DNA of 64,000 nt from Prorocentrum cordatum (GCA_963575745.1 CAUYUJ010000209.1:1-64000), one strand, 5' to 3'. Counted from the stretch's first letter, positions 360-49,200 are shown. Program-made: numbers and translations. Notes: generated by a model from the letters alone, not told the origin.

Positions 360-560
360 CTTCGGCGAGCGAGGAGGGGAAGTGAGAAGGGGTGGGCCTT
401 CTCAGAAGGCTCGGAAGTCCCCCCGCCTCATGAAAAAGTTGCCTTGGCCTTCCCCGAAGACGCAGGCAACTTCTCAGAAGGCGCGAGGGCTTCTGAGAAG
501 TCCCGACGCTTTCTGAGAAGGCCTTGTCCTCCTCACTTCCCCCCCTCGCTCGCCGCCGAG
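360..560. mobile_element. CTTCT(C/G)AGAAG-family MITE
   Basis: CGGCGAGCGAGGAGGGGAAGTGAG ... CTCACTTCCCCCCCTCGCTCGCCG inverted ends; same internal units. Confidence 0.75.
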
Positions 561-4273: not shown

Positions 4274-5455
4274 TATATATATATATATATAAGAAAAATA
4301 CACACAAATCACAGGACTCCCCATACTTTCAAATATTTCCTGGGTTTCCGCCTTCCCCCAAAAAAATCATACCTTTTCCCATATCTTCTGGGGGATCGAC
4401 GATTACTTGTGTCTGTGTGTTTTCCCCCCTCCTGAAAGGAGGCGGGAGTCACCACGTGCAGTGCGGCCACAGCACCGCTGCAGCATCCCCACGCAGTGCG
4501 GCAGGCCGGCCCCGGCGAGGCCGCGCCCGAAATCTCCGGGGGGGGCGCCGATTAACGCCCCGGCGCAGCGCGGCTGCCTCGACGGCGGGGCAGGGCGCGC
4601 GGAGACGTGGCGCGCGCGTGCCCCCGTGCGCGCTACCCCGTAAGTCGGGCGTGTCCCCCTGCAGGGGGATCATCGACGGAAAAAAAAAGAACTCCAAAAA
4701 TACACCAAAAAGATCAAAAGTACGCAAAAAATAATACCCAGACTATTTTGGGACTATGTTTGCACTATTTTGGGGGTATTTTTTATTTGTCGTCGAAAAC
4801 CCCCCAGTAGGGGGACAGGCCCGACTTGACCCTACCCTCGAGGGTCAATGGGGCAGCCAGGCGTTTTTGACCCTTGCCTCCAGAGGCCTCTGGGGACCTC
4901 CGGGGTCTCCCAGCGTCGGGGCCCGAGATGGCACCAGACCTTACCAGCGTCACCCTGGTCCACACCCCCACGCCTTAGCATCCCGATCCGACTCGGCCGC
5001 CTCCTCCTCCTCCACTTCCTCCTCCTCCTCAACCTCCTCCTCCTCCTTGTCCCTCTCCTGCCCTCGTCCTCGTCCTCGTCATCCTCCGCTTCCTCCTCGT
5101 TATCATACTCGCTTCAAAGTCCCCAACTTCTCCTCATGGCTCTAAACTGATCCCTCTTCTGCATACACATATACCTTCTCCTCGTCCAACTCCTCCGCAG
5201 TATTCCTCTCCTCCTCCTCGTCGTACCCATCCTCCGCCTCATAACTCTCTCTCTCTCTCTCTCTCGATATTATCTCTCTGACTCTTGCTGTGTGAACAAT
5301 TACAGAAGGAGAGAGAGAGAGAGGAAGATGAGGAGAGATCGCTCTCTCTCTCTCTCTCTATCGATCGCGCTCTCTCTCTCTCTCTCTCTCTTTATCTCTC
5401 GTTATGTGTTGTTTATTATCTCTCCCTTTCTCTCTCCTTCTCTTTTGTTTGGTTA

Positions 5456-14400: not shown

Positions 14401-17400
14401 GGGGGCGGCGCCGGATGCGCCGCCAGGCGGTTCCAGCGCCGATCGGAAAAACCCACGCGGACCTCCGAAAGCTTATGATTATGAAGCTTTGACTACACTT
14501 CGAGCCCCCCCCTCATGGTGAGCCTCCTGCTCTCGGCGGCGCGCTCCGGAGGAGAGGCAGAGCGGGCGAGCCTGCTCAGAAGGCTCAGAAGGCCTCTGGC
14601 CTTCTGAGAAGCTGTCTGGGCCTTATGCGATGACGGAGACAGCTTCTCAGAAGGCCCGCCGCCTTCTGAGAAAGCCTGCTCTCGGCGCGCCGCCGATTTC
14701 CACATCCCCGCCATCTGCCAGGGACGACCGACCCCTGTGGTTAGAGCGTCAGCGTGCGAGGCACCAGTCGCACCCGGCAGAGCGCTGCCACATGGGACGC
14801 ACAAGGACATGCTAGTAACATGCGTCCCTGGCAGAGACGCACGTCCGACCCGAACATAGAATTCAAGTCGTACATCGTTTCCCGAGCGGTATGGCCAGAA
14901 AGCGCCCGCCACGCAGCTGGTACTATCGGACTTCCGAGTTTGCGCGTCGCCCTTGCATGGCCGATGCACATCTCGAGGTAAGTATGCTGGGTGGTGCTGA
15001 CCACAGGCTGGCCGACTCCGACCCTGGCCTCCTGTGGCGGCGGCCAGAAGCGTGCCCGTAAACCTCCATACGGGACAAACAACGGCATACACATAACATC
15101 TTGGCGGCAGACGACAAAAGACAGCGTTGCACAGTTACGATGGGGGTCACGACGACGGGGGGCCACAGTTGGGGGGGCCACAGTGGGGGGCCACAGTTGG
15201 GGGGGCCACGATGGCAGGGCGGTCGGGGCATGGATAGCGATAAGGATGGGGGTTGGGGGGTTGGGGCGGGGATGCAGATATGGGGCTGAGGATACAGGGA
15301 TAGGAGCAAGGGGGGGGTAGGAGTCGAGATGGGGGTATGGCTACCAGGCCCCTTTGGGGGCCTGGCGGACGCGGCATGCAGCCGTGGCTCGCCGAAGGAC
15401 GCGCGGTGGGATACCATGAGCCTGGGGAATAATACTGGGGCCCGGCGGCCTGGGGGCGGGAGCGGGGTGTGCGCGAAGCGCGGGTCGGGAGCGCTTTTCG
15501 CCAGACCTGGCAATAACACGAAGCCAGGGCGAGGCTGAATCGAGAATCGAGAGGATAAGCCATGACGAGGCGAATTCGGCGAGAATCAAGTCGAGAATCA
15601 CTGCGATCCGGCGGCTCTGGAGGGTCTCGGGCGCCGCAGCTTTCTCAGAGCGTCCCGGAACGCTCTGGAACGCTTGTATCCTTGTCCTAACCCCACCCGA
15701 GACAACCCCAACCTGCCGGGTGGAGCATCGGAGCTCGGACCTCCGCGAGTGCATGTTCATGCTGGACTGTCCTCTTCGGCTCGCTCTGCCCGGTCTACCC
15801 GACCCACTCGCAGAGTCGGTGCGGACACTTCTCCCAGGGCTGAACCTAAACGGTGTTTTTCGTTTTCGTTTTGTTTTCGTTTTCCCTCGCTTTTGTCTTG
15901 AATCCGCCTTTACGTCAAAACGAAGTCGAAACGAAAACGGCCCACAAAATCGCCAAAAACACCGTTTAGGTCCAGCCCTGACTTCTCCCGTGGCGCGTTC
16001 AGACGGCGCCACGCCGATGTAAAGCCGCTCGCCTTCACGGGGCCGACGGTCTCCGCGAAGGCCATCAGCGCGTCCTCCGTGACGTCCTTGAGGAGGCCGC
16101 CGAAGAAGACGCCCGTGCCGTCCTAGCCACTGTGAGGAGCACCGGGGGGGGCCCTCGGAGTCGACGAGCGGTCGGCATCGAGTCAAAAAATGATGTCAGT
16201 GAAGGGGCCCTGGGACACACACACACACATACACAAATAAATAGATTCCCCATATGTTCTCATATTTTCTGGATTCTCGTCCTCCCCCCACTTGCCATAA
16301 TTCCCTATACTTTCCTGTGAGTCGACGATTAATTGTGTCTGTGTGTTTTACCAACCCTACTTGGTTGGGAAATCCTTTTGAATAGAGCACTGCGGTCTCC
16401 AGTCCTCCTCCTCCTCCTCCTCCTCCTCCTCCTCCTCCTCCTCCTCCTCCTCCTCCTCCTCCTCCTCCTCCTCCCGCCTCCCGCCTCCTCCCGCCTCCCG
16501 CTTCCGTCTTGTCTCCTATTGCCTTGCGCGAACCTGGCCATCCCTGGGGGGCTGCGATCTGTGACACTGTCGCCACTTTCGAGGGCTGCTGGTGGGTCCT
16601 GCGGAGTGAGGCACCGCGGGGATCTGAGCGGAACCTCGCCGTCCCTGGGGGGCTGCGATCTGCCACACTGTCGTCACGTTCGAGGGCATGCTGGTGGGTC
16701 CTGCGGAGTGAGGCACCACGAGGATCTGAGCGGGACCTCGCCGTTCCTGGGGGGCTGCCATCTGCGACACTGTCGCCACTTTCGAAGGCTGCTGGTGGGT
16801 CCTGCGGAATGAAGCACCGCGGGGATCTGAGCGGGACCTCGCCGTCCCTGGGGGGCTGCCATCTGCGACACTGTCGTCACTTTCGAGGGATGCTGGAAGG
16901 TCCTGCGGAGTGAGGCACCGCGGGGATCTGAGCGGGACCTCGCCGTCCCTGGGGGGCTGCGATCTGCCACACTGTCCTCACGTTCGAGGGCTGCTGGTGT
17001 GTCCTGCGGAGTGATGCACCGCGGGGATCTGAGCGGGACCTCGCCGTCCCTGACGGGTTGCGATCTGCGACACTGTCGCCACGTTCGAGGGCTGCTGGTG
17101 GGTCCTGCGGAGTGAGGCACCGCGGGGATCTGAGCGGGACCCCGCCGTCCCTGGGGGGGCTGCGATCTGCCACACTGTCGCCACTTTCGAGGGCTGCTGG
17201 TGGGTCCTGCGGAGTGAGGCACCGCGGGGATCTGAGCGGGACCTCGCCGTTCCTGGGGGGCTGCGATCTGCGACACTGTCGCCACGTTCGAGGGCTGCTG
17301 GTGGGTCCTGCGGAGTGAGGCACCGCGGGGATCTGAGCGGGACCTCGCCGTCCCTGGGGGGCTGCCATCTGCGACACTGTCGCCAAGATCGAGGGCTGCT

Positions 17401-20400: not shown

Positions 20401-23400
20401 TGCTCGTGGTCATGGTGATCACAATTATTTCCGTTCAACGTCAGCTCCCTCATTAGAACGTAGGGCCATGGCTTCAGAAATCATCGCACACTTACCCTTA
20501 CAGGCGCCCCACTTCCGCCTCCACAGTCAGCACAGGTATCTGCCACGATTAACCACGCCAAGTTGTAACACTGCTGGCAGTACAACATCGGCGACGAACC
20601 AGGATGGAAATAAGAAGGGGCGACCCTTCTCAGAAGGTTCGGAAGTCCCCCGGCCTTCTGAGAAGTGTTCTAAGCCTTCCCCGAAGACACAGAAAACTTC
20701 GCACAAGGCCTGAGGGTTTCTGAAAAGCCCCTCTGCCTTCTGAGAAAGCCTGCTCCGTCTCACTCTCGCTCGCCGCCGACAAAGGACATGGTTACAGCGA
20801 CCTTAACCAGTGTCATCAGAACTGCAGACTCAGGCACCATTTTTCGCGTCTCGCACTGCGAAAGACTATCTCCTCGCTCCCGCGCCGCCCCCGTGGAGAA
20901 GAGTACCTCTCCGGCTCGGGCCGCGAGACGCGAGGTGCGATCATCCTCGCGCCCTCGCGGTTGACCTGGTCCACTGCCTCCATGGCACGCCCCAGCCCAC
21001 CCCCCCAAGACTCGCCACCTCTACCGTGTGGTCTCCCAGTCGACCTTGACTGCCTGCCCCTCGGCCGCGCGGCAGCGGGCGGTCCTCGTTGCCCCACGTG
21101 TTGTCGCGGTTCCCACGGGGACCTTGCTGACATCGAGACCGCGCTGGCCAAAGCCCAGCGCAGGTCCACGTGCAGACACCGTTACGTACAGTCGGGAAAG
21201 AAGGAACGCGAAGCAAGGAACGAAGCCCCTCCTTGGCCCTGAGAGCGCCTCCGGGACCCAGGAGGGCAAGATGAACAGCACTGGAGGAGTCTAAGGAACA
21301 TCGAGCCCCTTCCGAACCCAAACTGTTCCCTATTTCAGCGTCTTGACTGTACTCGACCGCGGACCCCTTGGCAACCCATGGGCCGTCGGTGTCCCTCGTC
21401 CGCCCTTGGCGGTCTATGGCGGTGCTCGGCGCTTCTTCGGCGAGCCTCGGCGGTCGGTCTCGGCCGTCGTCACGCAGGTTGGGTGGCTGCGTTGAGCAGG
21501 GGGCGCAGGATCAAGAAGCAGATAATCACTGCAAGATGCATGACAGCATCTAGACCAGAAGCTTGACGACCAAACGATGCACGGCCGTAAGCGGTGAGTT
21601 GCTGTGCAAAAACAGTCATGGCCTCTCGATATCTGCGTGAATGATTTGGATGACGGCCGACTCCGCAAGAGATCACGCTTAGACCTCATGCCAAAATTCG
21701 ATCACACAACTCTGGCACCCGATCGCATGCTGACGGCCGCATTGCAACGATGCCCCGCCGCGGACACCTCACTCGAAAACGAGACACATACAAACACCCA
21801 ACCCGTGAACACCCAGGATCAGCTGCTACGTTGACACACATCGGTACTGATGTGAGCGCCACAGGCGGGCAAGGCTGTTCGTGCCGCTTGCCCTAGCCAG
21901 ACAAGACCTCGTCGGACGGCGCCGTGCGCCACACATCCGCGAGACTCCCGGCGCAAAGCCGCGCAAGGTGTGCAACTATGACACCATCATGGGAGCCTCC
22001 CATACCATCGTGTCGGCTCTTCTGAATCGACGCTGGTCGACGCTAAATCGACGCTGGTCGACGCTAAATCGACGCTAGTCGACGCTAAATCGACGCCAAA
22101 TCGGCGCTACCTCATTGACTCCCAGACGCGATTCGATGTCGAGGCCTCCTTAATGGGGCCGAGTAGATGTGGTCGGAGGATCGCGCCGCATCGCCAACGC
22201 ATCGGCGATGCATCAGCAATGCATCGGCGATGCATCAGCAATGCATCGGCGACGTCGGCGACGCATCGGCGATGTCGGCGTGAAGAAAATCGGGCCCCAC
22301 ATAGAGCGGCATCGCCGATGCATCGGCGATGCGGCGCCATCCGCCGACCCCATCTACTCAGACCCCATCTGGGAGGCCTAGACGATGCTAAAGACTGAAG
22401 TAAGAGGGTATAGCAGGCTCCCATGACTTGCCACCGAAATCTGCGATGCCGCGAGGCGCCGTGCCACACACATCCGCGGGATCCCCGAAGCTGTGGCGAC
22501 CGCGCTTGCCAGGGGGGGCCCAGCTGCCGTCGGGCGCCTCCTCATACCTCGGCAGGCGAGCGAGGCAGCGAGATATAGAACGAAAGAACAAGCGAGATGG
22601 AGTTGCTTCGGTGAGGGCGGACGGCAAAGACAGTACTATAAGAACAAGAAAAAACACCATAGACATGATCTGTTCGCGATCCGCGTGGATTTCTTGGATC
22701 CGCGCTGGGCCCCCCTGGCAGCGCCTCTGGCGCCGCCCCTGGCGCGGAGCGCCGAAAGTGTATGTTTATGGCGTTTGTTCCTTCTTCTAACGATGAGCAA
22801 GACTGAAGGCATCGTTACAGAGGTACTTCCTGCTTGCCAGGTAGGAGGCACAACTGCAAAATGGCGAGCAAAACAATATGGCCTTGAAAGCTGGCACATA
22901 CGCATATGGTTGGCAACGTTTGCCCAGCATGACAAGGAGCACAACGAAAATTAGAGAGAGAGATAGTGTGTATATGTATACGCATACACACATGGCCGAT
23001 TAACAAAAACGTGATCCAAATTTGCTGACGTCTGACTTACACTCCGCCGGCTTCTGCCGGCGGATCCGCCGTCGCTTTACTTCCGCAGGCTTCCGCCGAC
23101 CTTCCGCCGCCTGCCGACGAGGGCTCGAGCCAAGGAGGGCCTCAAGAAAGACGGGGTGAAAAACGACTTCAAGAGGGCTGCCGTAATCCCAAAAGCTGCC
23201 TGAGTAAGAGGGCCCCATGAGTGCCACAAAGTGGCTCCAGGAGGGCCCCGGACCTCCAGAAGTTCTGAACCCGAAAATGCAAACGCCTCTTGGGAGGCAA
23301 CCTTTACTTCCACCGGCTTCTGCCGGCCGAGCCGCCCTCGTTTCGCTTGCCTTCTTAATCGTAGGCTCCGATCCCTTCTAAGAAGCCGTCTGAAGCCACC

Positions 23401-25848
23401 CCCCTCCCCCCACCGCCTCGTTCGCGCCGCCGAATGGAGTTCGAGGACGGCCACAAGGGAGGTCTGCGCGCCTGAGGGGCAACGACAGGGGGTGGGACTG
23501 GGTTCAGGCGGGGGTCATCGACCTGGAACCGGCGACACATCGCCAATAAATCGGCGACAGCGATAGCGGAACCGCACGATCCTGGGCGGGGTGGGCTGAC
23601 GGGCCCCTATCCGCGATCGATGGGCGATTGGGGGTCGATTCACCCCCTCCCCCCTGACCTGAGCCCGTCCCCTTGACTTTCGGGTCATCATTCGGCTCTC
23701 CGGCGGTCCTTCGGGGCGATCCAGGAACCCTCGGAACGTCTTCGGCGAGGCGCAGCTGCCGGAACGCGCCCCGAGACCAGAGAACCACCGAGAACCGACC
23801 AGACGCCCCAAAACCTCGAACCTCGAACCTCGAACCCGGACATGAGCCCACGGTCGGGAACTGTTGCTTAGCGTGTCGCGGCGGCGGCCCCAGCGACACG
23901 CTCCGCCGTGCAAGCTGACAGCGTGTCGCTCCACTCCGCGGGGCGGGAGGCCCGGAAAAAAACTCGAGACGTTGACTCGCGGGGGCTGGGCCGTGGAAGG
24001 CCTGTCGCGCCGAAGCGTGGTGGGCAAGGACCGGCAGCGCGACACGATGCTGCCCGCCCAGACCTCCGACGTCGTGTTTGTTTTTTCGGCAGCGCCGACC
24101 CCCAGTGGGCTGGATTCCTTCCCAGGGACGGGTTTTCCATTCTGAATCGCTTTTCGACGGCCCCGAGGCTCGGCAGGGCCCCCTGGAGGCTGAAAGCAGC
24201 GCAAAACCTCCCCCGTCGTGTTTTCTTCTCCACAGCGCGAAGGGGCTCTAGGCTCATTGCCCCCCCCCCCCGAGGCCGTGGCCCCGCAAGGCGCCCTCCC
24301 GGCCCAGGAGGGGCGCCCGGCCGAGGGGCCTGCGCGCACACACCCACACCCATACCCACAGGGGGGTCGGAGAGGGCTATGGGTGAGTGTTGTCGAATGG
24401 GGGTCCCCGCTCGAACGGGAGCGTTCCCCAGGGTCCGACAACCCGCACCCATACCCATAGCCAGTCCTCCTCTCAACGACCCCCCCGATGGGTATGGGTG
24501 TGTGTTGCTCGTTCGTCACTCTCTATGCGCAGCCCCCCTGTGCGGAGCGACCGCCCAGCGCACCCCTTTGGACGCCCGAGAGGGGTGCGGGGAGAAGGGG
24601 CACACATTGCGCAGCAACGAATGTTGTCCCAAACCAGCAGCGGCCGCTGTCGGGCAAGCGACCCTCTGTCTCGAGTGGACACGGGCCGCGGCGGCGTGGG
24701 CAGCGAGTCCTGTTCAAAATCAACAGGATCCGCTGTTGGACATTGTATGGGGGGCCACATGCGAACCCGACCCCTACCCCCCACGATTTCTGAGAGGGGG
24801 AGGGTGGGGTTCACCTCGCTCGGGAGCTCCCGAACAAAGTGAACCCCACCCTCCCCCTCAGAAATCGTGGGGGGTAGGGGTAGGGTTCGCTTGTGGCCCC
24901 CTGGCATCGGGGACCGACGAGGAATCGAGGATCAGCTCGAGGGTCGGAGGACAAATCCTTGAATCGTCGGCGGCGGGGCAGGGGCAGTCCGCACCAGCGT
25001 GGGGCGAATCGGGGCAGCCGATCGGCAAATTGTCCAGAGCGCCAAAGAGGAAGGCCGCAGGGAACAAATGATGGCCCTCTGGCGGCGCCTCTGGCGCCGC
25101 CCCTGGCGCGCTCCGTGCGCCAAGCCAGGGGGTCAAGCGCCGACGCGAGAAATCCGCGAGAAATCCGAGTTGTTACGTTTATGTAATTAGTTGTTGCCCG
25201 AAGAGGGCAAGCCCAGACTGCACGTCAAGAGAAAGCTGCAGGTAAGCCAAAAAGGCACGCTGGAAGAAATATTGATGCCAAGCTGAGATCAGTGTAGAAA
25301 CAGTGCGGTGGCAAGGCCAAGGCAGGCCGCGAGCAGGGCAGAGGCAAGGTGAAGGCAAGGTAATGATAGGCGAACAAACAGCTCGAAGGCAACCAATTCT
25401 AAGCCGAAAGCAAGACTGAAGGCTGGCTTAAAGGACGCTGAAGCAGAGCTGCATGCAAGCATACCCGATGGCATGCAAGCACATCTGCTACATTACGCGT
25501 CGGTACCTGCCCGAGCACTTGACCGTACGCGCTACGGCCCCCGTCACAGGCGCACACACTTTCGTGCAAGTTGGACTATGCCTAAGCAGCCGAAAGCATG
25601 GAGCGCACATGCACGTATGCACAGACGAGTGCACTCCGCACGCATGTGCGCGCGGGCATAACTTCTCGCCGTCGGCCTCGCCCGCAGAGGCGACAGGCGG
25701 GGAACACGAGAGCCTGGGCCCTAACCCCCAGGGGGCCTCAGATCTGGTCAAAAACATCGGCGCGCTCCCGCCAGAAGCGCTGACCGCCGTCGGCCGAGAT
25801 GTCGGTCAGGGCCCACTTGACGATGACGATGACGATGACGGCGACGAA

Positions 25849-31389: not shown

Positions 31390-32692
31390 ATGATGATGAT
31401 GATGGTGGTGATAATGATGATGACGAAAAAAGAAGAATACGCAGAAGAAGCACAATAATAATGAATACAGGGCAGCGTTCAATACATAGGATGTTTCAAA
31501 ATATATGATGCATTAATGTATGAACACATGTATGCATGAACTCATCCCTGCATCTTCAATACGTGATCCGCACGCGGAGCATGTACTAAAACGGCACTGT
31601 ACTAAGCACGCAGACAGAAACGCCCGAAGCTCCGCGCGGAGTTCTTGGACCGGCGATGGGCCCGCCGCCCCCCGGCGCGCTCCGGGGCGCGCGGGGGGGG
31701 GCGGCGCCTCGTGCGGCGCAGGCCCCCAGACCTCCGCGCGGACCTCTGACATCGAAGGGGCCCAGGGACACACAAATTCGCCGGCCCAACGGGCCAGAGG
31801 CGTGCTAAGATCTCCGGCAACTGGTTACCAATATTTCTAGTTCGCGCGCGCGGGGCGGCCCCTGGGGGTCCCCCGGCGAAAAGTATCCCGACCGCAGCCC
31901 GACCAGGTCTACTCAGAGATCGTTTTGAGGGCCTTTTTTCGACACCCCTCACGAGGATCGTGGCCTCCGAAGGGGGTGCACTCGACTGCCCCGCCCCAAG
32001 AGGCCCCCAAGAGCCCCCAAAGAGGCCCAAGGGGGCCCCAAGACGCCGCCAAGGAGCCCAAAGAGACCCCCAAGAGGCCCCCAAGAGGCCCCTAGGAGGC
32101 CCCAAAGAAGCCCGCAAGAGGCTTCAAAGAGGCCCCATAGAGCGCTCGAGGGCCGGCGGAATGAGCGAAGCGATTAAATGAATACACATAAATAACAGGA
32201 TTCCCCATACGTTTTTTTTTCTCTCTCTCTTTTTTTTTGAGTTTTCTTCTTCCCTCCCCCCCACTTCCCATATGTTCCCATCTTTTCCTGAGAATCGACG
32301 ATTCTTTGTGTTTTTTTCCCTTTCCGAGACATTTCGTTTCACCGCAAACACTCCACGTGCAGCTAGCATCCGCGCGCTACTCTCGGAAGTGCCGTGGTCA
32401 GCGTCCGCCGCCGCGCCACTGCCCGCGAGCAGCGCTCGGTGACGGGCACAGGAGGAGGAGGAGGAGGAGGAGGAGGAGGAGGTGGAGGAGGAGGGCACAG
32501 GAGGAGGAGAAGGAGGAGGGCACAGGGAGAGGAGGAGGAGGAGGATGAGGAGGAGGAGAGGAGGAGGAGGAGGAGGAGGGCACAAGAGGAGAAGGAGGAG
32601 GAGGAGAAGTATGGGTACCCAGAAGAAAGTGACACAGGAGCCCAGAACAAGGAGCGGAGGAGGATGGAGGAGGAGGAGGAGAGGAGGAGGAG

Positions 32693-32723
<31 letters not shown>

Positions 32724-35700
32724 GGAGGAGGAGCGAGGAGCGAGGAGGAGCGAGGGCACAGGAGGCGGAGGAGGAGGAGGAGGAGGAGGAGGAGGGCAAG
32801 CGAGGGCACTGAGGAGCGAGGGCAATGGAGGAGGAGCGAGGCGTCGCCCACGGCGAGCCTCGACCACGACGGGGCTCCCCGACGCAGATCCGAGGCACGG
32901 CCCGAAGACCTCCGCCCGGGGCCCACTCAGAGGGGGAGGCGGAGGAGGAAGGAGGAGGACGGGACGGAGAGAGGAGGATAGGGCGAGGATCAGTACGAGG
33001 AGGAGGAAGAGGAGGAGGAGGAGGAGGAGGAGGAGGAGGGAGAGGAGGAGGAGGAGGAGGAGGAGGAGGAGGAGGAGGAGGAGGAAGGCGCAGGAGCAGG
33101 AGGAGGAGGAGGATGTGACTTCGAGGAGGTGGGGGAGGGAGTGACTTCTGCCCCTCCTGAGCCCCAGATGCCAACTATGCTGGCGTCTCGGCTGAAGCAC
33201 CTCTCGGGGTTCTCGGGGGCTCGAGGAATGGAGCCGGTCAATCATGTTGTCTCCCGTGGAGGACCCGAAAGCACTACGGGACGGAAGGAGCCGCCGCGAC
33301 TGCTGGGGCCGCCGCGGCTGCTGGCGCCGCCCGCGGGAGCGCCGCCGACGACCGCCCGCACGGCGGCGGGAAGCGGAGGCGGACGGAACGGCAGGGGGAT
33401 TGCTTTTCGCGGCGCGCGAGGCGGAGTCACCGAGGCGCCCTCTGCGGCTCCTGCGCCTCTTCCCGCCCGTCGGCGCTGCGGGCGCTGCCGGCACCACCGC
33501 CCTCGCCCAGTCTGCGCGCGTGTCTGGCTCGGGTGTTGCTAGAAGTGCTCCTGGCCCCAGGTGCCTCCAGCTTTTCGCTCCGCTTTGGAGGCCCTGGAGC
33601 CCTCTGGGCCTCGTGAGGGGTGCCCTGGAGGCCGTCTGGGGCACCCCCGAGAACCCTGGGGGTACCTTGGGCCAGATGTACTTCTGGCAACACCCGGCTG
33701 GTGGGCAGGCAGTCTGCCAGCACGGCCCGCCAGTCGCTCGCGGGCTGCGCCATCCGCGCGAGGATGCGCACCACGCAGTCGACGTTGAGCACCGGGTGTG
33801 CGCCTCGTGGGCCGTACCTCCGGAGCGGCAGCCGCCGCAGCCTGGTCGCCCCGTGCTCTTCGGCCTGGCGCCGGACCGTGCCCTTGAGGACGAAGCGGTC
33901 GACGAGCCCGCCGATCACGTAGATGTCCTCCCGAGACAGCTCCTCGAGGTCCTCTTGGCGGCGCGCCCAGGGGGGAAATGGAGGGGCGGGCCTTCTCAGA
34001 AGGCTCGGAAGTTGCCCCTGGCCTTCTGAGAGGCTTTCGGAGCCTTCCCCCGAGGAGACACAGGGAGCTTCTCAGAAGGCATTAGAGCTTCTGAGAAGTC
34101 CCACCGCCTTCTGAGAAGCCCTTCTCCTTCTCGTTTCCCCCCCTCGCGCGCCGCCGATCCTCGTCCGCGTCGGGCGAAAGCACCACGATCCTGGACCTGT
34201 CGAAGAGCTCCCAGTAGGGGGCCTGCTGGCAGTGCACCAGCCACTTGCGGAATCCCAGGTCCTCCAGGAAGGGCAGCACGGGGTTCGCGGGACCGACGGA
34301 CGTCAGGTGCAGCTGCAGCTCGGAGCGCTGGTCGCGGAGGAACATGTAGGCCATCTGTGCCTGCTTGGCCAGCGAGAACTGCTCCTCGTGGGCGAAGCAC
34401 ATCTCCGCATCCGCTGCCTCGCGGACCAGGCCCCCTGGCCGCGACCCCGCAGATACGGGGCGCTTTGAGGGCGGATGCCCCGCTCGGAACGTGCCCGTGC
34501 GACCGCGTCATCGGCGGGACCGCGCCACGGAATCCAGACTGCGGGGACGTGGATACGGATACGTTCGCCACTCGTGAGCTCCCTCGGCCCCATGGCCTCC
34601 GCGAAGCTGCAGCTGATCAGGACCTTTGGCGACCCGTGCTCGTGTGCCCACCGCAGGCTCTCCCTCAGCTCCGCCTCACGCGCCGCGTCCCGCTCGCGCG
34701 AGGCGGCGGCGCGCTCCAGGATCGAGGCGCGCTCCTCGTCGCTCATCTCGGCCCACGCCGCGTCGGCCGCCTCCATCCTCTTCTTCTCGGGTCGGACGGG
34801 GGGGGGCGGTAGCAACGGGCGGGGGGGAGGTTGCGCATCGGTGAGGTTTCGCCACGTTGCGCCCGCGTGCGCGGGGATGGGCGGCCGATCTTCCCAGCGC
34901 CTCCCCGCGGAGGAGGCGCCAGTGCATCGAGGCAGGCGCCCGGCGGCGGCACCGAAGAGCAGCTGCACGCCGCGGGTTCCGTGCCGCGGGGCGCAGACGG
35001 ACGCGCGAGCACGGGGCGTCCCCCCCTTGGAGGCGCACGTCCGACCGGAGCGTGCAGTGGAAGCACGTTGCGGCATGCTGTTGATTAGCCAAGCGGCATG
35101 GACAGACAGCGCTCGCCACGGCACGTGGACTATCAAGGGTGCTTCGGCGTGCGCGCTGCCCGCGGGGAAGCGGCGCACGCACAATGCACACTACACAGCG
35201 CACTCGTGTCGGAGTCCGACCGATACTCCTTTCTATCTGGAGGCCTCCCGGATGGGGTCCCAGTAGATGGGATCGGCGGATCGCGCCGCATTGCCAATGT
35301 ACCGCCGATGAATCGCCGATGCGTCGGCGACGTCGACAATGCATCGGCGCCACTGGCGTGGAGACAATCGGGCTCCGCATCGAGCCACATCGCCGATGCA
35401 TCGCCGATGCGCCGCGACCCTCTGACCCCATCTGCGTCAACCCCATTGGGGCGGTCTGGACTTTCCTGGGCCCCCCCTCACCCCTTGCGGCCTGGCCTGC
35501 CAGGCGCTTCTTCTCAAGTGCCGCAGGGGGCCTGGCCCGCCGCGGACGGTCTGCAGACCGCTTTCCATCTGTCCATCTGTCCCTCTAGCGTTGCACCCTG
35601 GCTGTCGGGTCATAACCCTATGACGGTGAGAATCGCACCCTGGGCTGAAGCTCGGGGTCCTGGAAGGATAACTTTTTCCCAGAGATATCGGTATTGGGAT

Positions 35701-38700
35701 ATCGGGATGGGTCTTGAATGACCTCCAGGCTCTCCGGCGGCCATTCGAGACGATCTGGGCACCCCCAGCACGCCCTCGGTGAGGCGCAGCTGCCGGAAGG
35801 CACCCCGAGGCTGGGAGACTGTCGAGAACTGACGAGCACGCCCGAAAATCTCGAACCTCCAACCCCCGTCGGCGACTCCGAAGGGTGTGGCTTGCAAAGG
35901 GTGCGGCTTGCAGCCCGCACCCTGGGGAGAGGGCGAGGTTCTCGACAGAGCTCTCCGCCGCGCCCCGAGGAGGCCCGACGAATGCAACGTGGTGCCTCCA
36001 CGTCGCAGCGACGCAGATCGCAAATCACACCCCAGCGTAACCTCGGAGGCCAGGAGGTGGACACCAACACCGACATCGGCGGTGTACCTCCACCGAGGGA
36101 CAATGATCCCGGTCTCGGTGGTGGTGGTAAGATTCGGGCTTCCCAGGTGGCCAACAAAAATTACCACCGACACCGACATCGAGGATCCTCTTCTCCCTGT
36201 GGAGGCAGACCCCCTGTGTTGGTGCTGCTGCCCATACAGTCGGAGCGTTGACCCAAGGAACCCGAAATAAGCAACGAGGCCCCTCTCATCCACAAGTTGA
36301 ACTTCGATTTCCCATCGAAAACCAAAGGAAAACCCAAGGCAAACTGTAAAACAATCAAGGAGCACCGAACCCCTGCCCAACGAAAAGGGTTCCTTCTCCA
36401 GCGCCCCGACTGTACCCGGGCCTCCACTAATAACCCCACCCCTCCGGGCCGCCCCCACGCCGCCCCCCCTCGCCGGACCCCCGTCTGCCGCTCCAGCCTC
36501 TGCTCCCGGCGCCGCTCCCGCTGCCGCTCCCGCTTCTGCGCGCGCCTTATGTCGGGCGTGTCCCCCTACAGGGGGATTTTCGACGAAAAGGTATAAATAA
36601 TCCAAAAGTGCTCCAAAAATTACAAAAAAAAAAAAATACTCAAAAAATAGTCCCACGACTATTTTTAAAATATTTTATTTTTTTCTGCGAAAATCCCCCT
36701 GTAGGGGGACAGGCCCGACTTCACGCGCGCCTCCACGCCCTGCGCTCCTCGGGCCGCAGGCGCTGCGCGGGCAGCGCCAACGGGCGGGGGGGGGCCACCG
36801 CTGGCATGCAGGAGCAGCCAGTGCACATCGCACCGTCGAGCTCGGCTCGGCTCACGGCGTGCGTCCGATCGGGCTGCATCGGCACGGGGTCGGGATCGGA
36901 TCGACTCTGTCCGCGATGCTGGCCGTGGCCGGCCCTGGCCGACCGCCCCCCTCCCCCCAGGTAGCGTCACGATTCGGGCTGACCTCCGAGCTGTCTACGG
37001 GTTGTGCTGTAGGCATTCCCAGACGGCGCTGGCGCGAAGCGTGGCGTTTTACCCCCCCCACATCCTCCCCCCGGTAACGCCAGCTGTCGCCCGGGAGTAA
37101 AAGAGCACCCTCCAGGATGCACGCCATCGCCATGGCGTCATCGCCAATGCAAGCTTCGGGCCGCATCGGATCGCAAGAGCATCGAACTCGAGTCCAATCG
37201 AACTGGCCAAAATCGATGCCGGAGGATCGGATCGATCGGATCGAAATGGACCCTGCTGAGGGGGTCGCCACCTCCTCCAGGGAACGGCGCACTCCCTTCG
37301 ACTCCCCCAAAGCCCCCAGCACTCCCAGAGGCTCTAACAACGTCCAACCTCCTCCTCCTCCTCCTCCTCCTCCTCCTCCTCCTCCTCCTCCTCCTCCTCC
37401 TCCTCCTCCTCCTTCTCCTCGATCCTTCCCTTGAAGTGGTGACCCCCCCGGCAGGCGAGCGCCCCCACCCTCGGCGCTGCCCGAGATTCCTCTCGCATGG
37501 ACGGAGGCCCTCGTCCTGCCCAGGGGGGCCCTCGGCAGCGCCGCAGGGGCCCCCCTCGCCCCCGCCCGCCGCGCCCAGCTCGCCCTCCCCGCCGCGCCCG
37601 CCCGCCGCCGCGGCCCCGCGGGGCCCCCGAGGCGCCTCAATGGCCGCCGCGGGCCGCCGCGGGCCCCCGGCGGCCCCCGCGGGCGCCCGCGGCCCGCCGA
37701 AGGCCGCCGCCGCCGGCGCCGCGCGCGCGCGCGCGGCCGCGAGGAGCGCGGCGCACGCGGGCAGCGCCGAGGGCCCCCGCAGCCTTGCCGCCCGCTGCGC
37801 GCGGCCGCGCAGCGCGCGCGCCGCCGCCGCGCCCAGCATGCCGCCAGCGTCCGCCAGCGCATGCGAAGGAGGTGCGGCCGCCGGCGCGAGCGCCAGACCC
37901 GCGGGGGCCCCGAGCAGCCTCGCGGGGGCGCGCCAGGCCTGCGCGCCGCAGCCATTGGCCATCGGCTCGGGCGGGAGGGCGTTGGCCAGGATGGCTCGAG
38001 CCCAAACGGCTGAGCAGGATGAGCCCCGACATCCTCGCGTCATAAAGCAATCGCGACAGAAAGTTATTCGCCAGTTTCGGCTTCCAGCACGGCACGCGGG
38101 CACGTCATCACGGCACGACACTCGGGCACGGCCAGGTACGCGGGCGGCACAGTGCCGCTGTTTCGAACGTAGGCGCAGCACGTCACACGGGCACGGCTCA
38201 TCACGGCTTGGCGCGGCCCAGCACGGAACGCGGGCGGCACATCTGTCGCAGTTTCAAACGCAGGACCACGTTCTCAAAGCAGCTCGGATCCCTCATCTCC
38301 ATTGCTGCGTCGGGAATGAGGCAGCTCAGACTCCATAAAACATGCGTTATGTAGGGAGTCATACTTCCTTAGTCCGAATCAACTCAATTCAACTAGCGTT
38401 TGCCAGCGTGGACCCCTAACAGAGAGATACTGCACTTTCGAAGCGCAAGCGGCAACCAGTGGCAACGGGCGGCAACGCGGCGAATCCGCGGCACACCCCC
38501 ACGGGCGGCCACGGGCTGCAGAGGGCGACCACGTGGCGAATCCTCGGCATCCCCACACGGGCGCCCACGGGCGGCCACGGGCGGCAGCGAGGCGAACCTT
38601 CGGCACACAGCCACGGGCGGCCTCGCGCGGCAACAGGCGGGAACGTGGCGAATCCTCGGGACACACCCGCAGACAACAGCGATCACCGACGGGCGGCCAC

Positions 38701-43800: not shown

Positions 43801-46251
43801 CAAAACGTACACGGCAAGCAGTAGAAAGGGCATCGGCATCAGGATTCTCACTCGGGAACCCGAGCTGCATCTACGAAATAAGCATATTGTACGAGAAATT
43901 CGACGGACCACATGTAAGTCTCTGGGGCATATGTTCATATGTCTTCGTAACAAACGGGGAGAGAGGCTTGATCTGCATCACAAACTGCAATACACTGAGG
44001 CACACAATCTGAATATTGAACGTGGCAATCGCGGTGGAATAACCAGGCGACAGCAAACGAAGCTGGGAGCAGCGCGCAACAAATTTCTCAAGGGGCAATT
44101 GCCAGGCCTCCCCAGCAGCACATGGCCAGGTATAAAAGTCGAGGTACTTCATAAGTCCTGCGCCTCCTGACCAGAGTCTGCTTGACCCTCTCCTCCATCC
44201 CCTTCCCACATAGCAAACGGCTGCACTTGCCAACATTGAGCGCCAGCCCAATGGCTCCATCGAGCAACAGGGGCGCACGCCACACTGCTGGCAGGGAGCC
44301 GATCACATTCACCACGCCAAAGCAGTCGTCGGCATGCGCAAGGCACGGAGAGAGCTGACGAGGAAGGGTAGATTGCTTCCAACGAATAACTGGGTCGAGA
44401 CAAAGAACATACAGCGCCATTGAACTTGGGTCACCCTGCCTGACCCCGCGACTCAACGCGAAGCCCTCAAACCGCCTGCCCCCCCCCCCCCACCACCCAC
44501 CCACACACGATTTCTCTCGTACAACATGCGATAGAAGTTCAAGATCAACAATGGAATACCCGTAGCAGCAAGCACAGCGTGGAGCCAAGAATGGAGGATA
44601 TAAGGACACGCAGCCGCAAAATCAGCAGCAAAGACCGCAGCACCATCATGTCCGAGCAAGTTCCGCTGAAGGCCCCACCCCTCCGCCTGAACAACACTGG
44701 TAAGCAGCTGCCGATCCTTGACACACATCTGCAACGGAACAACGGTGTCGCGTGAAAGCTGATTGAGCGGCACGCAACGCAGGCTAGAGAGAAGCTTGGC
44801 GTCTGTGTTGGCCATAGACAAAAGGCGAGTGCAAGCACAATCCCGAACAACGTTCCCTGCACCGTCCCCCACCCGTTCTCCTTTCGGCAAGAAGACCGTC
44901 GGCAGCTCCCCCACATCATCGGGCAATGCAGAGAAGGTGCCACGCACCACTGCAAGATAAACGCTGTAATGGTATCGCGGAGCGTCTCCGGCGCGCCAGC
45001 ACCAGTGCGGAATCCCATCAGGCCCCGGCCTCGAGTTACGACGCGAGCGAATAAGCTGGTAAAACCCAGGATAAGCGACCTCCCAAACAATCGTTTCTCC
45101 ATCATCAGTGTGTCGGTCCCCAGGGACAGCGCGAACATGAGTCAGGATCTCCTCCCAATAAATACGATCCGCGGGAACGTCCGAGAATACCCCCCCCCAG
45201 TAGTTCGCAAGGCAGGCGGCAGACGCCTCCAGCGATGGACACGGGCGGGCTTGCTCGTCCTGCACGGCAAAAAGAAACGCGCGTCGCTTAAACCTCCTCC
45301 AGAGCTCCTGCCTCCTTCGTGACCTCCTCATAACATTCATGTTGGCATCAACCTTGGTCTGCTGGTCATTCGTCAACTCCTTCTCCTCCGTCGACAGGCT
45401 GATATAAAGCTCTTGGATATGGCGGAAGAAACACTGAAGGTCAGTGCACACCATCGCCTCAAGCTCAAAGAACTGTTGCAGCGATGGGTGAGCAGCAAGG
45501 GCGCGGCACACGAGATGGTCTTGCTGCGCTCGAAGTCCACGCAGCGCGACCATGCATACACTCCGGGCAGGCGGCCAAGCTCATCCGCACGATCAGTAAG
45601 GATGCGCTCTAGCGTCTCGTGGTACACATCAGACTTACTCAACCAACTCGGGACCGTGGGAGCGTCGTTTGACGTCGGGCGATACGTAGTAATCTGCACA
45701 AGCACGGGTACGTGATCAGACGAGAAGGAATCGCAGAGCTTCCCAACGACAGGAGTTTGAATGGTAAGGTCAGCAATGATGGCAGCAAGGAAAGAAGAGT
45801 GAAGTCTGTCTAGCCGTGACGAATGAACTATATTACCACCACGGAACTCGCGACGTGTATCGTCAGCCTGGAAGAACTCAATCCAGTGCCCACAGCGCCT
45901 ATCAAAGACCTCACGAAACCGAGCATCACCATGAGTCCACCCACTCCCGTCCGCAGCCATCCTACCTTCACCCTCCAGAGTAAAATGTCCAATCCCCCAG
46001 GACAATCTAAAAACAACTGCTCGACAGGCGGCGGGGCTCCTAGAATGCCAACGACAATTGCTCGTATGTGCTGAGGGCTTCGCATGTATTCGGCATGTGT
46101 ACATCATGATCGCTAAATTCCCTTGAGCATCTTGAGCCAAAACGTCAACGGATGATGATGACAATGATGATGATGCTGATGATGATGATGGTGATGATGA
46201 TGGTGGTGGTGATGGTGATGGTGATGATGGTGATGATGGTGATGATGATGC

Positions 46252-46286
<35 letters not shown>

Positions 46287-49200
46287 ATTATTATTATTAT
46301 TGTGGTGGTGGTGGTGGTAATGATGGGGAGGCAAAGGTAGAGGAGAAAGAGGAGGTGGAAGAAAAGGGAACAGTTCAAGGAGCCGCGGGAGGAGGGGCAC
46401 ATAGAGGAGGAGGAGGAGGAGGAGGAGGAGGAAGAGGAGGAGGAGGCGACGAAGGAAGAAAAGGAGGATGAGGAGAAGCGGGAACATCTGCTGGCCTTCC
46501 CAGGAGGAGCAGGAAGAGTAGCAGAAGGAGCGGAATGGATTCACTAATTGTTCGAGAGGACCGTTCATGTTAGTTACTGGTTATTGGGGTGCAGGGCGGA
46601 GGAGGAGCCAGAGGAGGGCAAGAGGAGATTAGAACACACCGAGCCCCCCGTAAAGCCCTCCTCCCGTTTCCCGCTCGTCTCCCCTCCTCCTCCTCCTCCT
46701 CCTCCTCCTCCTCCTCCTCCTCCTCCTCCTCCTCCTCCTCCTCCTCCTCCTCCTCCTCCTCCTCTCCTCCTCCTCCTCCTCTCCTCCTCCCTCCTCCTCC
46801 TCCTCCTCCTCCTCCTCCTCCTCCTCCTCCTCCTCCTCCTCCTCCTCCTCCCCTCCTCCTCCTCCTCCTCCTCCTCCCTCCTCCTCCCTCCTCCTCCTCC
46901 CCCTGCTCGCCTCTCCTCCTTCCTCTCCTCCTCCTGCCTCCTTCTTCCCCCCCTCTCTCCCCTCCCACTCCTCCTCCCCCTTGTCCTCCTTCTCTTCCTC
47001 CTCTTTCCTCCTCCTCCTCCTCCTCCCCGTCCTCCTCCTCGTCCTCACTCCTCTTCCTCCTATCCCTCCCCCTCCCTCTCCCCCCCCCCCCCCCCTGGAG
47101 CAGGGCGGCGGGCTCCTCGTGGGTCCTGTTGTCTGGCCACGTCTGGCCGCCCCACTGGTTGCCGCCCCACTGGTTGCCGCCCCACTGGTTGCCGCCCCAC
47201 TGGTTGCCGCCCCACTGGTTGCCGCCCTGCATGCCTGTCTCGGGCGTTGGTAGAACTGGGTTTAGTGGAGCCTGGTTTGGTGATCTGTACCGGGGGCGCC
47301 CCCCCGTCCCATTTCCGCTAACCGGAACTACCGTCACCCGAAAAAACGCCGGCTATGGCAGACCTGGTTCAGTGATGATCTGGCCAATTCGAAGGCTCCG
47401 GGGCCCTAGCACTAACCGGGTCCCCTTACCCGGGGTCCTGGCCATACCCGACTGTCGGGGGGCGCTCGGCGGCGCCGGCCGCACGCAGGAGGCTGCCCCG
47501 GGCAGGAGCGACCCACGGCGTGCTGCTCTCGGGGGCCAACGGGGCGGGGTAGGCAGGGCACGCGGGCACACTCGCCCGTGCTGGGGTGGGGCGGGCCCTG
47601 GTGGGCCCGCACTGAGGGTGTCTCCCGGCGGACTTAGCTGCCCCGATACGCGACACGCAACACGTAGCGTATTGATACGGAGCTCAACACGAAGACTGAA
47701 CACGTAGGTCTGACGCGATGCGTTCGCCAAGGCGTGGGCCAATACGTTGAGCCAACACGCAACGTATTGACACGGACGTTTTGAACACGGCACGTGTTGC
47801 GTACCAAAACGGGCGTATCGAGGCAGCTAAGCCGGCGGATGGTCACTCTTGCGCGCAGCAGAAGTGGGAGGGGGCCAGGAAGGGCGGAGCTGAAGGCCAG
47901 CCTGCGGGAGGGGTGCTCCCGCAGCCAACCAAGCGCGACTGGGTGGCGACAGCGGCACGGAGTTGTCCGCAGAGCTTCCCGCGGCAACGGGGCATTCGAC
48001 GCAACAGGAGGGCCCGATGCTGCTTCGCACCCTCCACAACAGTTGCATCTATTCTTCACGGATACATGTATCGATCCTGCTCGACAATTCCTTCTCCCCT
48101 TGGAACTGTCATACGCTCTGCCGCCTGACCTTTGCCCGGAGGAGAGGAGGTCGGGGATCTGCTGACCAAGATCACTCCAAACAGGGGTCAGTCAGGCCTT
48201 GCAGGATCTTGCAAGACCCTGCGGATCCTGCAGGATCCTGCGCCCAAGCCCGGGTCAGTGCAGCCCTGGCTCTGCAGGATCATGCAAGACCGGGCGCTCT
48301 GACTGCCTCCCGTTTGCTGTGTTCCCCGTCTCTCGAGCCCCGAGGAGGGGGGGGCTGCTCCAAAAGACCGGAGCCGACGGCCCCAAGCCGGTCCCGCCCT
48401 GTGTGCGATGCCCACACATGAAAGGAAATTGAGACACACAAATAAATACACACAACTAACCAGATTCCCCATATTTATTTTCCCATATGTTCTGGGTTTC
48501 TGTCTTCCCCCCCACTTCCCATATTTTCCCATATTTTCTGGGGAATCGATGGTTGATTGTGTCTGTGTGTTGTTTCCCCTCCTGACCACAGGCCTTGCAT
48601 GGCCCATTGGTCGCCGCCCCAGCCGCCCTGGCCCTGCATGCCCCACTGGGGGCAGCCGCCGCAGCCGCCGCAGCCACCTCGGGACGGGTAGGGGGCAGGA
48701 GGAGGAGGAGGAGGAGGAGGAGGAGGAGGAGGAGGAGGGAGGAGGAGGAGGAGGAGAAAGAAGGAGGAGGAGGAGGAGGAGGAGTAGAGGCGGCCCGCGG
48801 CTCTGGCCTGCCAGGGCTGCTCGGCTCTCTTGCCCACCGAGCCGGGGGGGGGGGGGGGACAGAGGGAGAGAGCTGTGCGCCGCCACCCCCGGGGGGCGCA
48901 GGCGCGCTCGCGAGATGTGCGAAAAATCGCGATCCTGACGGCGGCACGTCGGGCCACCTGGCCGCCTCTGCAGGGCGTGGGCCCACAAAAGACTGACGTC
49001 TCGCTTCTTTACTTCCGCCGGGAGTTGTGGTTGATTGGCCCCTCGCGCGGCCCGCCTGGACTTTGACTCGCCGCTGTTGCGCTCTCGCCTGCGGCTGCCG
49101 ACAAACAAAAAAAAAAAACTTCCGCCGCCTTCCGCCGACCTTCCGCCCACCCTCCGCCAGCCTCCAGTCGAACTCCGCCGAGGGCGCGACGCGCCGAAGG

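What the first reader, a model, noticed from the sequence alone, without database searches (positions are those of the whole stretch)
36539..36732. Intron made by a TIR element whose 9-bp target duplication supplies both splice sites
Seen: a 176-bp element with ~35-bp TIRs is flanked by a perfect 9-bp duplication (AGGCGCGCG on the coding strand). The first copy gives the AG|GC donor and the second the AG|G acceptor. Splicing 36546-36730 (185 nt = element + one TSD) restores ..RRAW-R-RAQKRERQRERRR.., while the unspliced frame hits TGA immediately. A sister copy at 4641-4829 does not define an intron. Known: introner DNA transposons create introns, and 9-bp TSDs typify Mutator-like elements. Inference: tolerance of GC donors lets an ordinary MITE become a scar-free intron with no splice signal of its own.
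Basis: partly seen in the sequence, partly recalled or inferred. Interest (0 to 1): 0.8.

Follow-up and report, generated by a model that had tools for sequence, protein, structure and literature searches.

The report
Transposon-made intron in dinoflagellate TRM10 gene
A small hairpin-ended transposon sits inside the coding part of a tRNA methyltransferase gene of a Prorocentrum-like dinoflagellate and is cut out of the messenger RNA exactly, which is a real but already described way of making introns.

Summary
A 176-bp element (36548-36723) has about 40-nt terminal inverted repeats and a perfect 9-bp target duplication. It lies in the N-terminal coding region of a minus-strand TRM10 gene. Assembled contigs from 3 of the 4 public runs laid (three studies) skip exactly 185 nt here, which is the element plus one duplication copy. 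They carry five further junctions, and the frame stays open through all six.

The mechanism is not new. Introner elements with inverted and direct repeats are described in Amoebophrya and Prorocentrum cordatum, and duplications that supply both splice sites (AGGH) are described in Polarella.

The "GC-donor tolerance" explanation is not shown. All six introns of this gene have strongly pairing ends, and three of them have no G[T/C/A]..AG register at all. The hairpin may therefore matter more than the dinucleotides.

Still open: an empty allele or paralogue as the RNA source (unlikely), the exact cut sites, and the transposon superfamily.

Verdict: a real, RNA-supported new member of a known kind, of moderate interest.

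The parts
36548..36723 (.). 176-bp non-autonomous TIR element (MITE, family A), AT-rich interior
36548..36589 (.). left terminal inverted repeat (3-nt terminus plus 39-nt core starting GTCGGGC)
   Evidence: 36 of 39 core positions match the right arm
36681..36723 (.). right terminal inverted repeat
36539..36547 (.). 9-bp target-site duplication, downstream (acceptor-side) copy on the coding strand
36724..36732 (.). 9-bp target-site duplication, upstream (donor-side) copy on the coding strand
36546..36730 (-). 185-nt intron in the only GC-AG register; the RNA junction fits any of 10 registers, from 36539-36723 to 36548-36732
   Evidence: joint 36538>36724, skips 185, 9 shared letters, in X2, X9, X14
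36731..36763 (-). 33-nt coding exon upstream of the MITE intron
36485..36545 (-). coding exon downstream of the MITE intron (lower end ambiguous by 3 nt)
37487..37561 (-). part of the upstream coding exon covered by the spliced contigs; the open frame continues upstream, with in-frame ATGs at 37839, 37962, 38043
36764..37486 (-). 723-nt intron with 22-nt inverted repeats 3-4 nt from each end; no canonical register (TC..CA or AT..GC)
34783..36484 (-). 1702-nt intron with 21-nt inverted repeats near both ends; best register AC..AG; contains other repeats
34385..34581 (-). 197-nt GA-AG intron with 5-nt boundary repeat; weaker end pairing
33952..34159 (-). 208-nt GA-AG intron made by a second MITE family (B) with a 5-bp duplication GAGGA that holds both splice sites
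33524..33697 (-). 174-nt intron: 170-nt element with 41-nt inverted repeats plus a 4-nt direct repeat CCAG; only CC..AG registers end in AG
33427..34782 (-). TRM10 (tRNA m1G9 methyltransferase) catalytic-domain exons 34582-34782, 34160-34384, 33698-33951 and the last exon with stop TGA at 33429-33427
4641..4829 (.). sister copy of MITE family A, same orientation, 9-bp flanks matching 7 of 9

Best explanation
A non-autonomous TIR DNA transposon (a 176-bp MITE) inserted, with a 9-bp target duplication, into the basic N-terminal coding region of a TRM10 tRNA methyltransferase gene on the minus strand of a Prorocentrum-like dinoflagellate.

Shown: transcripts lack exactly the element plus one duplication copy (185 nt). 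This restores the reading frame, which otherwise stops at once.

Inferred: the spliceosome cuts at AG|GC in the upstream copy and AG|G in the downstream copy. The roughly -100 kcal/mol hairpin formed by the inverted repeats, extended by the palindromic GCGCGC of the duplication, brings the two copies together. By this reading it is an introner element of the kind already described in dinoflagellates.
For: Anatomy.

RNA: contigs from X2, X9 and X14 (3 of the 4 runs laid, three studies) join 36538 to 36724 with 9 shared letters. The X1 contig ends about 13 nt short of the site. The same contigs carry five more junctions and match the exons with 0-1 other letters per piece.

The runs behave as RNA. 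Depth of the spliced contigs is 6-24 in runs of about 100 million letters. Bins 35010-35180 and 38259-38400 have zero depth in all four runs.

Registers: only k=7 gives GC..AG.

Coding status: the joined frame is open through all six junctions and aligns along its length to seven TRM10 homologues. It shares 210 of 374 aligned positions with the P. cordatum protein. The N-terminal 58 residues score 113, reached by 0 of 2000 shuffles.

Hairpin: MFE -103.5 kcal/mol, z = -13.6. The end duplex is -74.2 kcal/mol, reached by 0 of 1000 control pseudo-introns.

A second intron of the same gene (33952-34159) is another MITE, whose 5-bp duplication GAGGA likewise holds AG|GA at both ends.

Canonical registers occur in 3 of 6 introns. 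The chance of 3 or more, given the repeat lengths, is 0.014.
Against: The cut register cannot be read from the RNA: 10 registers give the same product. An AGGH register in a 9-bp repeat has a chance expectation of about 0.18.

Three of the six introns of the same gene have no G[T/C/A]..AG register. Their options are CC..AG, AC..AG, and TC..CA or AT..GC. They are still removed, so canonical dinucleotides are not required here.

The tool marks the three upstream joints, this one included, as 'between: not known'. That no extra letters lie at the joint rests on frame continuity and collinearity with homologues.

The kind of the runs is not on record. Their RNA nature is inferred.

No DNA run of the same strain was laid, so an empty allele is not excluded directly.
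Confidence: 0.6

Rival explanations
1. Structure-guided removal. The element is cut out because its hairpin juxtaposes the two duplication copies. The splicing machinery of this organism tolerates any boundary dinucleotides, as proposed for Amoebophrya introner elements and euglenid nonconventional introns. The GC-AG in the duplication would then be incidental.
For: All six introns of the gene have pairing ends. First/last 40-nt duplex energies are -37.5 to -74.2 kcal/mol, against a control mean of about -20 (sd about 9). Of 1000 controls each, 4, 2, 37, 2, 0 and 0 reach the observed value. Three of the six have no G[T/C/A]..AG register. Intron 33524-33697 is also exactly an element plus one 4-nt repeat, with a CC start. 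The GTGAAGT donor 6 nt downstream, which with the AG acceptor would give an in-frame 179-nt intron, is not the form seen among the 15 joints listed; 12 more were not shown. Precedent: PMC7789003 and PMC11282704 (passages read).
Against: Canonical registers are enriched: 3 of 6, with P(3 or more) = 0.014 by chance. Both clear MITE introns with longer duplications (5 and 9 bp) carry AGGH. One gene is a small sample. Three control values of the duplex test were undefined and inflate two control means.
Confidence: 0.3
2. No splicing of the MITE at all. The RNA contigs come from an allele or recent paralogue that lacks the insertion (an empty site), which gives the same sequence as removal of the element plus one duplication copy.
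For: Precise loss of the element plus one duplication copy is exactly what an empty site looks like. A diverged paralogue transcript is present in all four runs, with 19 other letters in 140 nt.
Against: The exons match the window with 0 other letters per piece in X1, X2 and X9 over several hundred bases. The same contigs lack five other segments, which have old, diverged inverted repeats (83-86% complementary) and family copies only 75-78% identical. An 'empty' copy of that age should differ in its exons. Low-depth contigs identical to intron sequence (35965-36145) show that this intron-bearing locus is transcribed in X1. X14, which differs by single letters, shows the same junction.
Confidence: 0.07
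3. An ordinary old intron whose repeats are chance features of GC-rich, low-complexity DNA.
For: The region is GC-rich and repetitive. Open frames and short repeats abound.
Against: There is a second copy with the same termini at 4641-4829. The TIR pattern has 4 matches against 0 in 100 shuffles. The 9-bp repeat is perfect and sits exactly at the TIR ends. The AT-rich interior is unlike the host DNA. Other RNA contigs carry the element in other flanks, seen as loose ends at 36690 and 36721 in X14.
Confidence: 0.02

Closest known systems
Introner elements (IEs) of Amoebophrya A25/A120 and Prorocentrum cordatum (Farhat et al. 2021, PMC7789003; Dougan et al. 2023, PMC10666404; passages read)
   Same: Introns bounded by inverted repeats close to both ends, with short direct repeats overlapping the exon/intron boundaries. 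They are multi-copy, MITE-like and predicted to form a hairpin. Non-canonical boundaries occur in neighbouring introns. The host is high-GC and Prorocentrum-like: the closest named homologue is P. cordatum, the window is about 60% GC, and the paper gives 59.7% for P. cordatum.
   Different: The direct repeat is 9 bp rather than 3-5, and the inverted repeats are about 40 nt rather than 8-20. It would therefore fall outside the pattern those papers searched for. Sequence relatedness to their families was not tested, because no genome was on hand.
Polarella glacialis introner-like elements, class 14 and part of class 13 (Roy et al., preprint 10.1101/2020.10.14.339549; passages read)
   Same: [quoted passage not shown] Removal is scar-free, and GC, GA and GT donors are all tolerated.
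   Different: Those classes have 4-nt duplications. Here it is 9 nt with AGGC at its start, which implies a different transposase. No sequence comparison was made.
Micromonas / Aureococcus introners (Huff et al. 2016, recalled; summarised in PMC11282704, passages read)
   Same: Short TIR DNA transposons whose insertion creates an intron with the help of the target duplication.
   Different: There one splice site is carried by the element and only the other comes from the duplication, which is 3 nt in Micromonas per the review. Here the element's own GT-like donor is not used.
Euglenid nonconventional introns (review PMC11282704, passages read)
   Same: It works alike on one reading: ends paired by inverted repeats, duplication-like repeats at junctions, non-canonical boundaries, and a suspected MITE origin. 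This fits the three non-canonical neighbours in this gene.
   Different: A different lineage. The euglenid +4..+6 CAG/CTG pairing motif and circular excision products were not tested. The MITE intron itself does have a GC-AG register.

Membership tests
Introner element (intron made by a transposon) | The sequence is removed from mature RNA | tested here: met
   Contigs of 3 of the 4 runs laid skip 185 nt at 36538>36724. That the runs are RNA is inferred.
Introner element (intron made by a transposon) | Inverted repeats at both intron ends that can pair | tested here: met
Introner element (intron made by a transposon) | Direct repeat overlapping the exon/intron boundaries | tested here: met
   The repeat is 9 bp and perfect. 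This is longer than the 3-5 nt used in PMC7789003.
Introner element (intron made by a transposon) | Similar copies elsewhere, some of them introns | tested here: inconclusive
   There is one more copy in the window, and RNA contigs carry the element in other flanks. Whether those copies are introns is unknown.
MITE / non-autonomous TIR DNA transposon | TIRs, a target-site duplication, small size, no coding capacity | tested here: met
   176 bp with TIRs matching at 36 of 39 positions and a 9/9 duplication. The sister copy's flanks match 7/9.
MITE / non-autonomous TIR DNA transposon | Mobility: presence/absence polymorphism or an empty site | not tested
   No DNA run was laid and no genome is held.
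Mutator-like element (MULE) | 9-11 bp target duplication (feature recalled) | tested here: met
   9 bp. I recall that Merlin also makes 8-9 bp duplications, so this feature does not discriminate.
Mutator-like element (MULE) | Cognate MULE transposase, or TIR homology to known MULEs | not testable with these tools
   No transposase family appeared among 206 window ORFs scanned with Pfam. No repeat library or genome was on hand.
Polarella class 14-type introner | AGGH inside the duplication supplies both splice sites | tested here: met
   AGGC starts the duplication, and the only canonical register is k=7. That these sites are actually used is inferred.
Polarella class 14-type introner | 4-nt target duplication | tested here: not met
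   The duplication is 9 nt.
TRM10 tRNA (guanine9-N1) methyltransferase (host gene) | Sequence homology across the SPOUT domain to named TRM10 proteins | tested here: met
   E = 3e-21 to 2.4e-28 to proteins that sources name TRM10. Full-length alignment. The Pfam scan of single ORFs found nothing.

The most novel reading that the evidence does not exclude
In this free-living, Prorocentrum-like dinoflagellate, hairpin-ended transposon insertions are removed exactly (element plus one duplication copy) whatever their boundary dinucleotides. An Amoebophrya- or euglenid-like structure-guided splicing mode would then operate in core dinoflagellates. Any such MITE would be a scar-free intron by default, and the GC-AG seen here would be incidental. 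Gene-prediction pipelines that allow only GT/GC/GA donors would then systematically mis-model genes like this one.
Probability: 0.3. Interest if true: 0.65.

Novelty: new member of a known kind. Interest (0 to 1): 0.4.

Why it matters
This is a clean, transcript-supported example of a transposon insertion into coding sequence that costs the host nothing because it is spliced out exactly. It also has an unusually long (9-bp) duplication that carries both candidate splice sites.

The wider point lies in the gene around it. All six introns are hairpin-ended, at least three look like element plus duplication, and half lack any recognised dinoflagellate splice dinucleotides. If that is general in this lineage, it bears on how dinoflagellate genes became so intron-rich. 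It also bears on how reliable annotations are that admit only GT/GC/GA-AG introns.

Tried and rejected
- No whole genome is held for the window, so no genome-wide copy count or duplication logo was possible.
- The metagenome scan with the 25-nt TIR pattern found 0 matches.
- The looser 17-nt pattern gave 118 or more metagenome loci and 4 viral loci. BLAST of both copies against all 122 stored loci found only 17-25-nt matches and no second arm, so these are chance hits.
- Pfam on 86 ORFs around the site (E <= 0.01) gave only sub-threshold hits. Pfam on 120 further ORFs (E <= 1e-4) gave none. The 224 remaining ORFs of 90 aa or more (of 430) were not scanned.
- The look-up of sequencing runs listed no RNA holder, and no run held more than 0.10 of the words. 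Four of the 14 listed runs were laid. X8 and X11, which may be DNA, were not.
- Parts of the stretch without cover, and the absence of a listed 179-nt joint, are not evidence.
- Earlier-findings look-ups returned nothing.
- Rfam and tRNA scans of the window returned nothing.
- Huff et al. 2016 is not held, so it is cited from recall and through the review.
- An Amoebophrya origin was considered because of the non-canonical hairpin introns. I dropped it because the closest named homologue is P. cordatum, including similarity in the poorly conserved N-terminus.
- The idea that the MITE lies in a 5' UTR, with translation starting at the ATG at 34776, was rejected on the N-terminal homology.
- The start codon was not settled. 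The contig-covered part of the first exon has no in-frame ATG.

Full report
**1. What is in the sequence**

On the + strand, the 9-mer CGCGCGCCT stands at 36539-36547 and again at 36724-36732. Neither copy can be extended. The 176 bp between them (36548-36723) end in inverted repeats. From the GTCGGGC core inward, 36 of 39 positions agree between the two arms (alignment A2).

Because GCGCGC is a palindrome, the repeat finder extends the arms into the duplication: 36540-36607 and 36663-36730, 68 nt, 79% complementary.

The TIR pattern occurs 4 times in the window, at both ends of this copy and of a second copy at 4641-4829. It occurs 0 times in 100 shuffles. The two copies are 72% identical over about 190 nt and lie in the same orientation. 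The sister's 9-bp flanks match at 7 of 9 positions.

The interior is AT-rich: GC is 0.40, against 0.64-0.71 in the neighbouring introns.

**2. The host gene**

Pfam found nothing in 206 ORFs. A minus-strand ORF at 33430-34071 did hit proteins that sources name tRNA (guanine9-N1)-methyltransferase (TRM10):
- Durusdinium trenchii, E = 4e-13, with better unnamed hits down to 3e-21.
- A second ORF hit the Prorocentrum cordatum TRM10, 393 aa, E = 2.4e-28, 70% identity over the exon.

tblastn placed three catalytic-domain exons at about 34794-34570, 34390-34157 and 33957-33691. The window is about 60% GC, like the 59.7% reported for P. cordatum (PMC10666404, passages read). I take the source to be a Prorocentrum-like dinoflagellate. 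This is an inference from homology.

**3. Transcript evidence**

No run held more than 0.10 of the sampled words, and none is on record as RNA. Laying four of the 14 listed runs (X1, X2, X9, X14; four studies) on 33300-38400 nevertheless gave contigs of about 0.3-1 kb. These match the exons with 0-1 other letters per piece and skip six segments:

| Joint | Letters skipped | Shared boundary letters |
|---|---|---|
| 33523>33698 | 174 | 4 |
| 33949>34158 | 208 | 5 |
| 34380>34578 | 197 | 5 |
| 34781>36484 | 1702 | 3 |
| 36538>36724 | 185 | 9 |
| 36763>37487 | 723 | 1 |

The 185-nt joint is seen in X2, X9 and X14, that is 3 of the 4 runs. The X1 contig stops about 13 nt short of it.

The runs behave as RNA. 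Contig depth is 6-24 from only about 100 million letters, and two bins are uncovered in all four runs.

The tool marks the three upstream joints 'between: not known'. That no extra letters lie there rests on two things. The frame stays open through all six junctions. The product is collinear with seven homologues.

**4. The MITE is inside coding sequence**

The joined frame gives a full TRM10. It shares 210 of 374 aligned positions with the P. cordatum protein.

The 58 residues encoded upstream of exon A come from the end of the first exon, the 33-nt exon 36731-36763, and the exon below the MITE. They align to the P. cordatum N-terminus with score 113, which 0 of 2000 shuffles reach. The first-exon part alone is matched by 1 of 2000 shuffles.

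Unspliced, the frame stops at TGA four codons into the duplication.

The start codon is not settled. In-frame ATGs lie at 37839, 37962 and 38043, and low-depth contigs identical to 37762-38011 exist in all four runs.

**5. Which sites are used**

Ten registers give the same RNA. Only one, intron 36730->36546, has a dinoflagellate-type pair. It reads GC..AG, with AG|GC in the upstream duplication copy and AG|G in the downstream copy.

An AGG[A/C/T] register in a 9-bp repeat is expected by chance with probability of about 0.18. The single case therefore proves little.

A GT donor (GTGAAGT) is formed by the last G of the duplication and the element terminus. With the AG acceptor it would give an in-frame 179-nt intron. 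The junction seen is the 185-nt one (12 further joints were not shown).

**6. The neighbours change the picture**

All six introns have ends that pair. The first/last 40-nt duplex energies are -54.1, -51.5, -37.5, -55.6, -74.2 (the MITE) and -61.3 kcal/mol. Pseudo-introns average about -20 (sd about 9). Of 1000 controls each, 4, 2, 37, 2, 0 and 0 reach the observed value. Two control means were distorted by undefined values.

Taking the other five introns in turn:
- **33524-33697** is a 170-nt element with 41-nt inverted repeats plus a 4-nt repeat. It has only CC..AG registers.
- **33952-34159** is a second MITE family, with three more copies in the window (363-559, 14530-14655, 20599-20779). 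Its 5-bp duplication GAGGA again holds both sites, AG|GA.
- **34385-34581** is GA-AG, with a 5-nt boundary repeat and the weakest end pairing of the six.
- **34783-36484** has a 21-nt inverted repeat within a few bases of each end, but offers only AC..AG.
- **36764-37486** has a 22-nt inverted repeat near each end, but offers only TC..CA or AT..GC.

So 3 of 6 introns have G[C/A]..AG. This is more than chance given the repeat lengths, where P(3 or more) = 0.014. The other 3 have no such register and are removed all the same.

**7. Mechanism**

Shown:
- the insertion with its duplication;
- exact removal of the element plus one copy from RNA;
- restoration of a conserved frame;
- a very stable predicted hairpin, -103.5 kcal/mol with z = -13.6.

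Inferred:
- that the cuts are at the duplication-borne GC and AG;
- that the hairpin helps by bringing them together.

The main rival is that the hairpin, not the dinucleotides, defines the intron. This has been proposed for Amoebophrya introner elements, where more than 60% of introns are non-canonical (PMC7789003). It has also been proposed for euglenid nonconventional introns (PMC11282704).

The empty-allele rival is unlikely for two reasons. The exons are identical to the window. The same contigs also lack five older, diverged segments. It was not excluded with DNA reads.

**8. Comparison with what is known**

Introners made by TIR transposons are well described. In Micromonas and Aureococcus the duplication supplies one splice site (review PMC11282704; Huff et al. 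2016 recalled, not held). In Polarella class 14, an AGGH duplication supplies both (preprint 10.1101/2020.10.14.339549, passages read).

P. cordatum introns are reported to be enriched in introner elements. These were defined as 8-20-nt inverted repeats and 3-5-nt direct repeats within 30 nt of the ends. The gene models there allowed only GT, GC and GA donors (PMC10666404, passages read).

The present element differs from these in three ways:
- its 9-bp duplication;
- its about 40-nt inverted repeats;
- its family.

It is a new member of a known kind. The Mutator assignment rests on duplication length alone.

**9. Verdict**

The intron is real and RNA-supported. The claimed conceptual novelty is not there.

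The most interesting residue is the set of hairpin-ended, non-canonical introns in a core (non-parasitic) dinoflagellate gene. That deserves a genome-wide look.

Noticed in passing
33524-33697, 34783-36484, 36764-37486 (minus strand): Three RNA-supported introns of the TRM10 gene have no G[T/C/A]..AG register. Their options are CC..AG, AC..AG, and TC..CA or AT..GC. All three have 21-41-nt inverted repeats within a few bases of both ends. This resembles the Amoebophrya-type non-canonical introns, here in a Prorocentrum-like genome whose published annotation pipeline allowed only GT/GC/GA donors.
   Followed up: partly
33952-34159; copies at 363-559, 14530-14655, 20599-20779: A second MITE family (termini TCGGCGGCG...CGCCGCCGA, 5-bp duplications, 75-78% identical copies) makes intron 2 of the same gene. 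Its duplication GAGGA holds AG|GA at both ends. The duplications of two other copies (one read as AAAGA) lack AGG.
   Followed up: partly
33704-33843 and 34156 onward: All four runs also hold a contig of a diverged paralogue or relative of the gene, with 19 other letters in 140 nt and depth 14-50. It may correspond to the P. cordatum protein P0005.
   Followed up: no
36255-36415, 35352-35522, 35865-36035 (inside the 1702-nt intron); window 22132-22383 and 23694-23829: The long intron contains further repeated elements. They are transcribed elsewhere (high summed contig depth, mismatched contigs with loose ends) and have copies at 22.1-23.8 kb of the window.
   Followed up: no
37340-37425 and many other places (e.g. 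32400-33150, 46100-47350): There are long GGA/GAG and other triplet or dinucleotide runs. These give open frames in all six frames, so ORF length alone is no evidence of coding in this window. No Pfam family passed in 206 ORFs, and there were no Rfam or tRNA hits.
   Followed up: partly
4641-4829: In the sister MITE copy, the left terminus together with the preceding base reads GTAAGT on the + strand, a textbook donor. Whether it lies in a transcript or is spliced is unknown.
   Followed up: no
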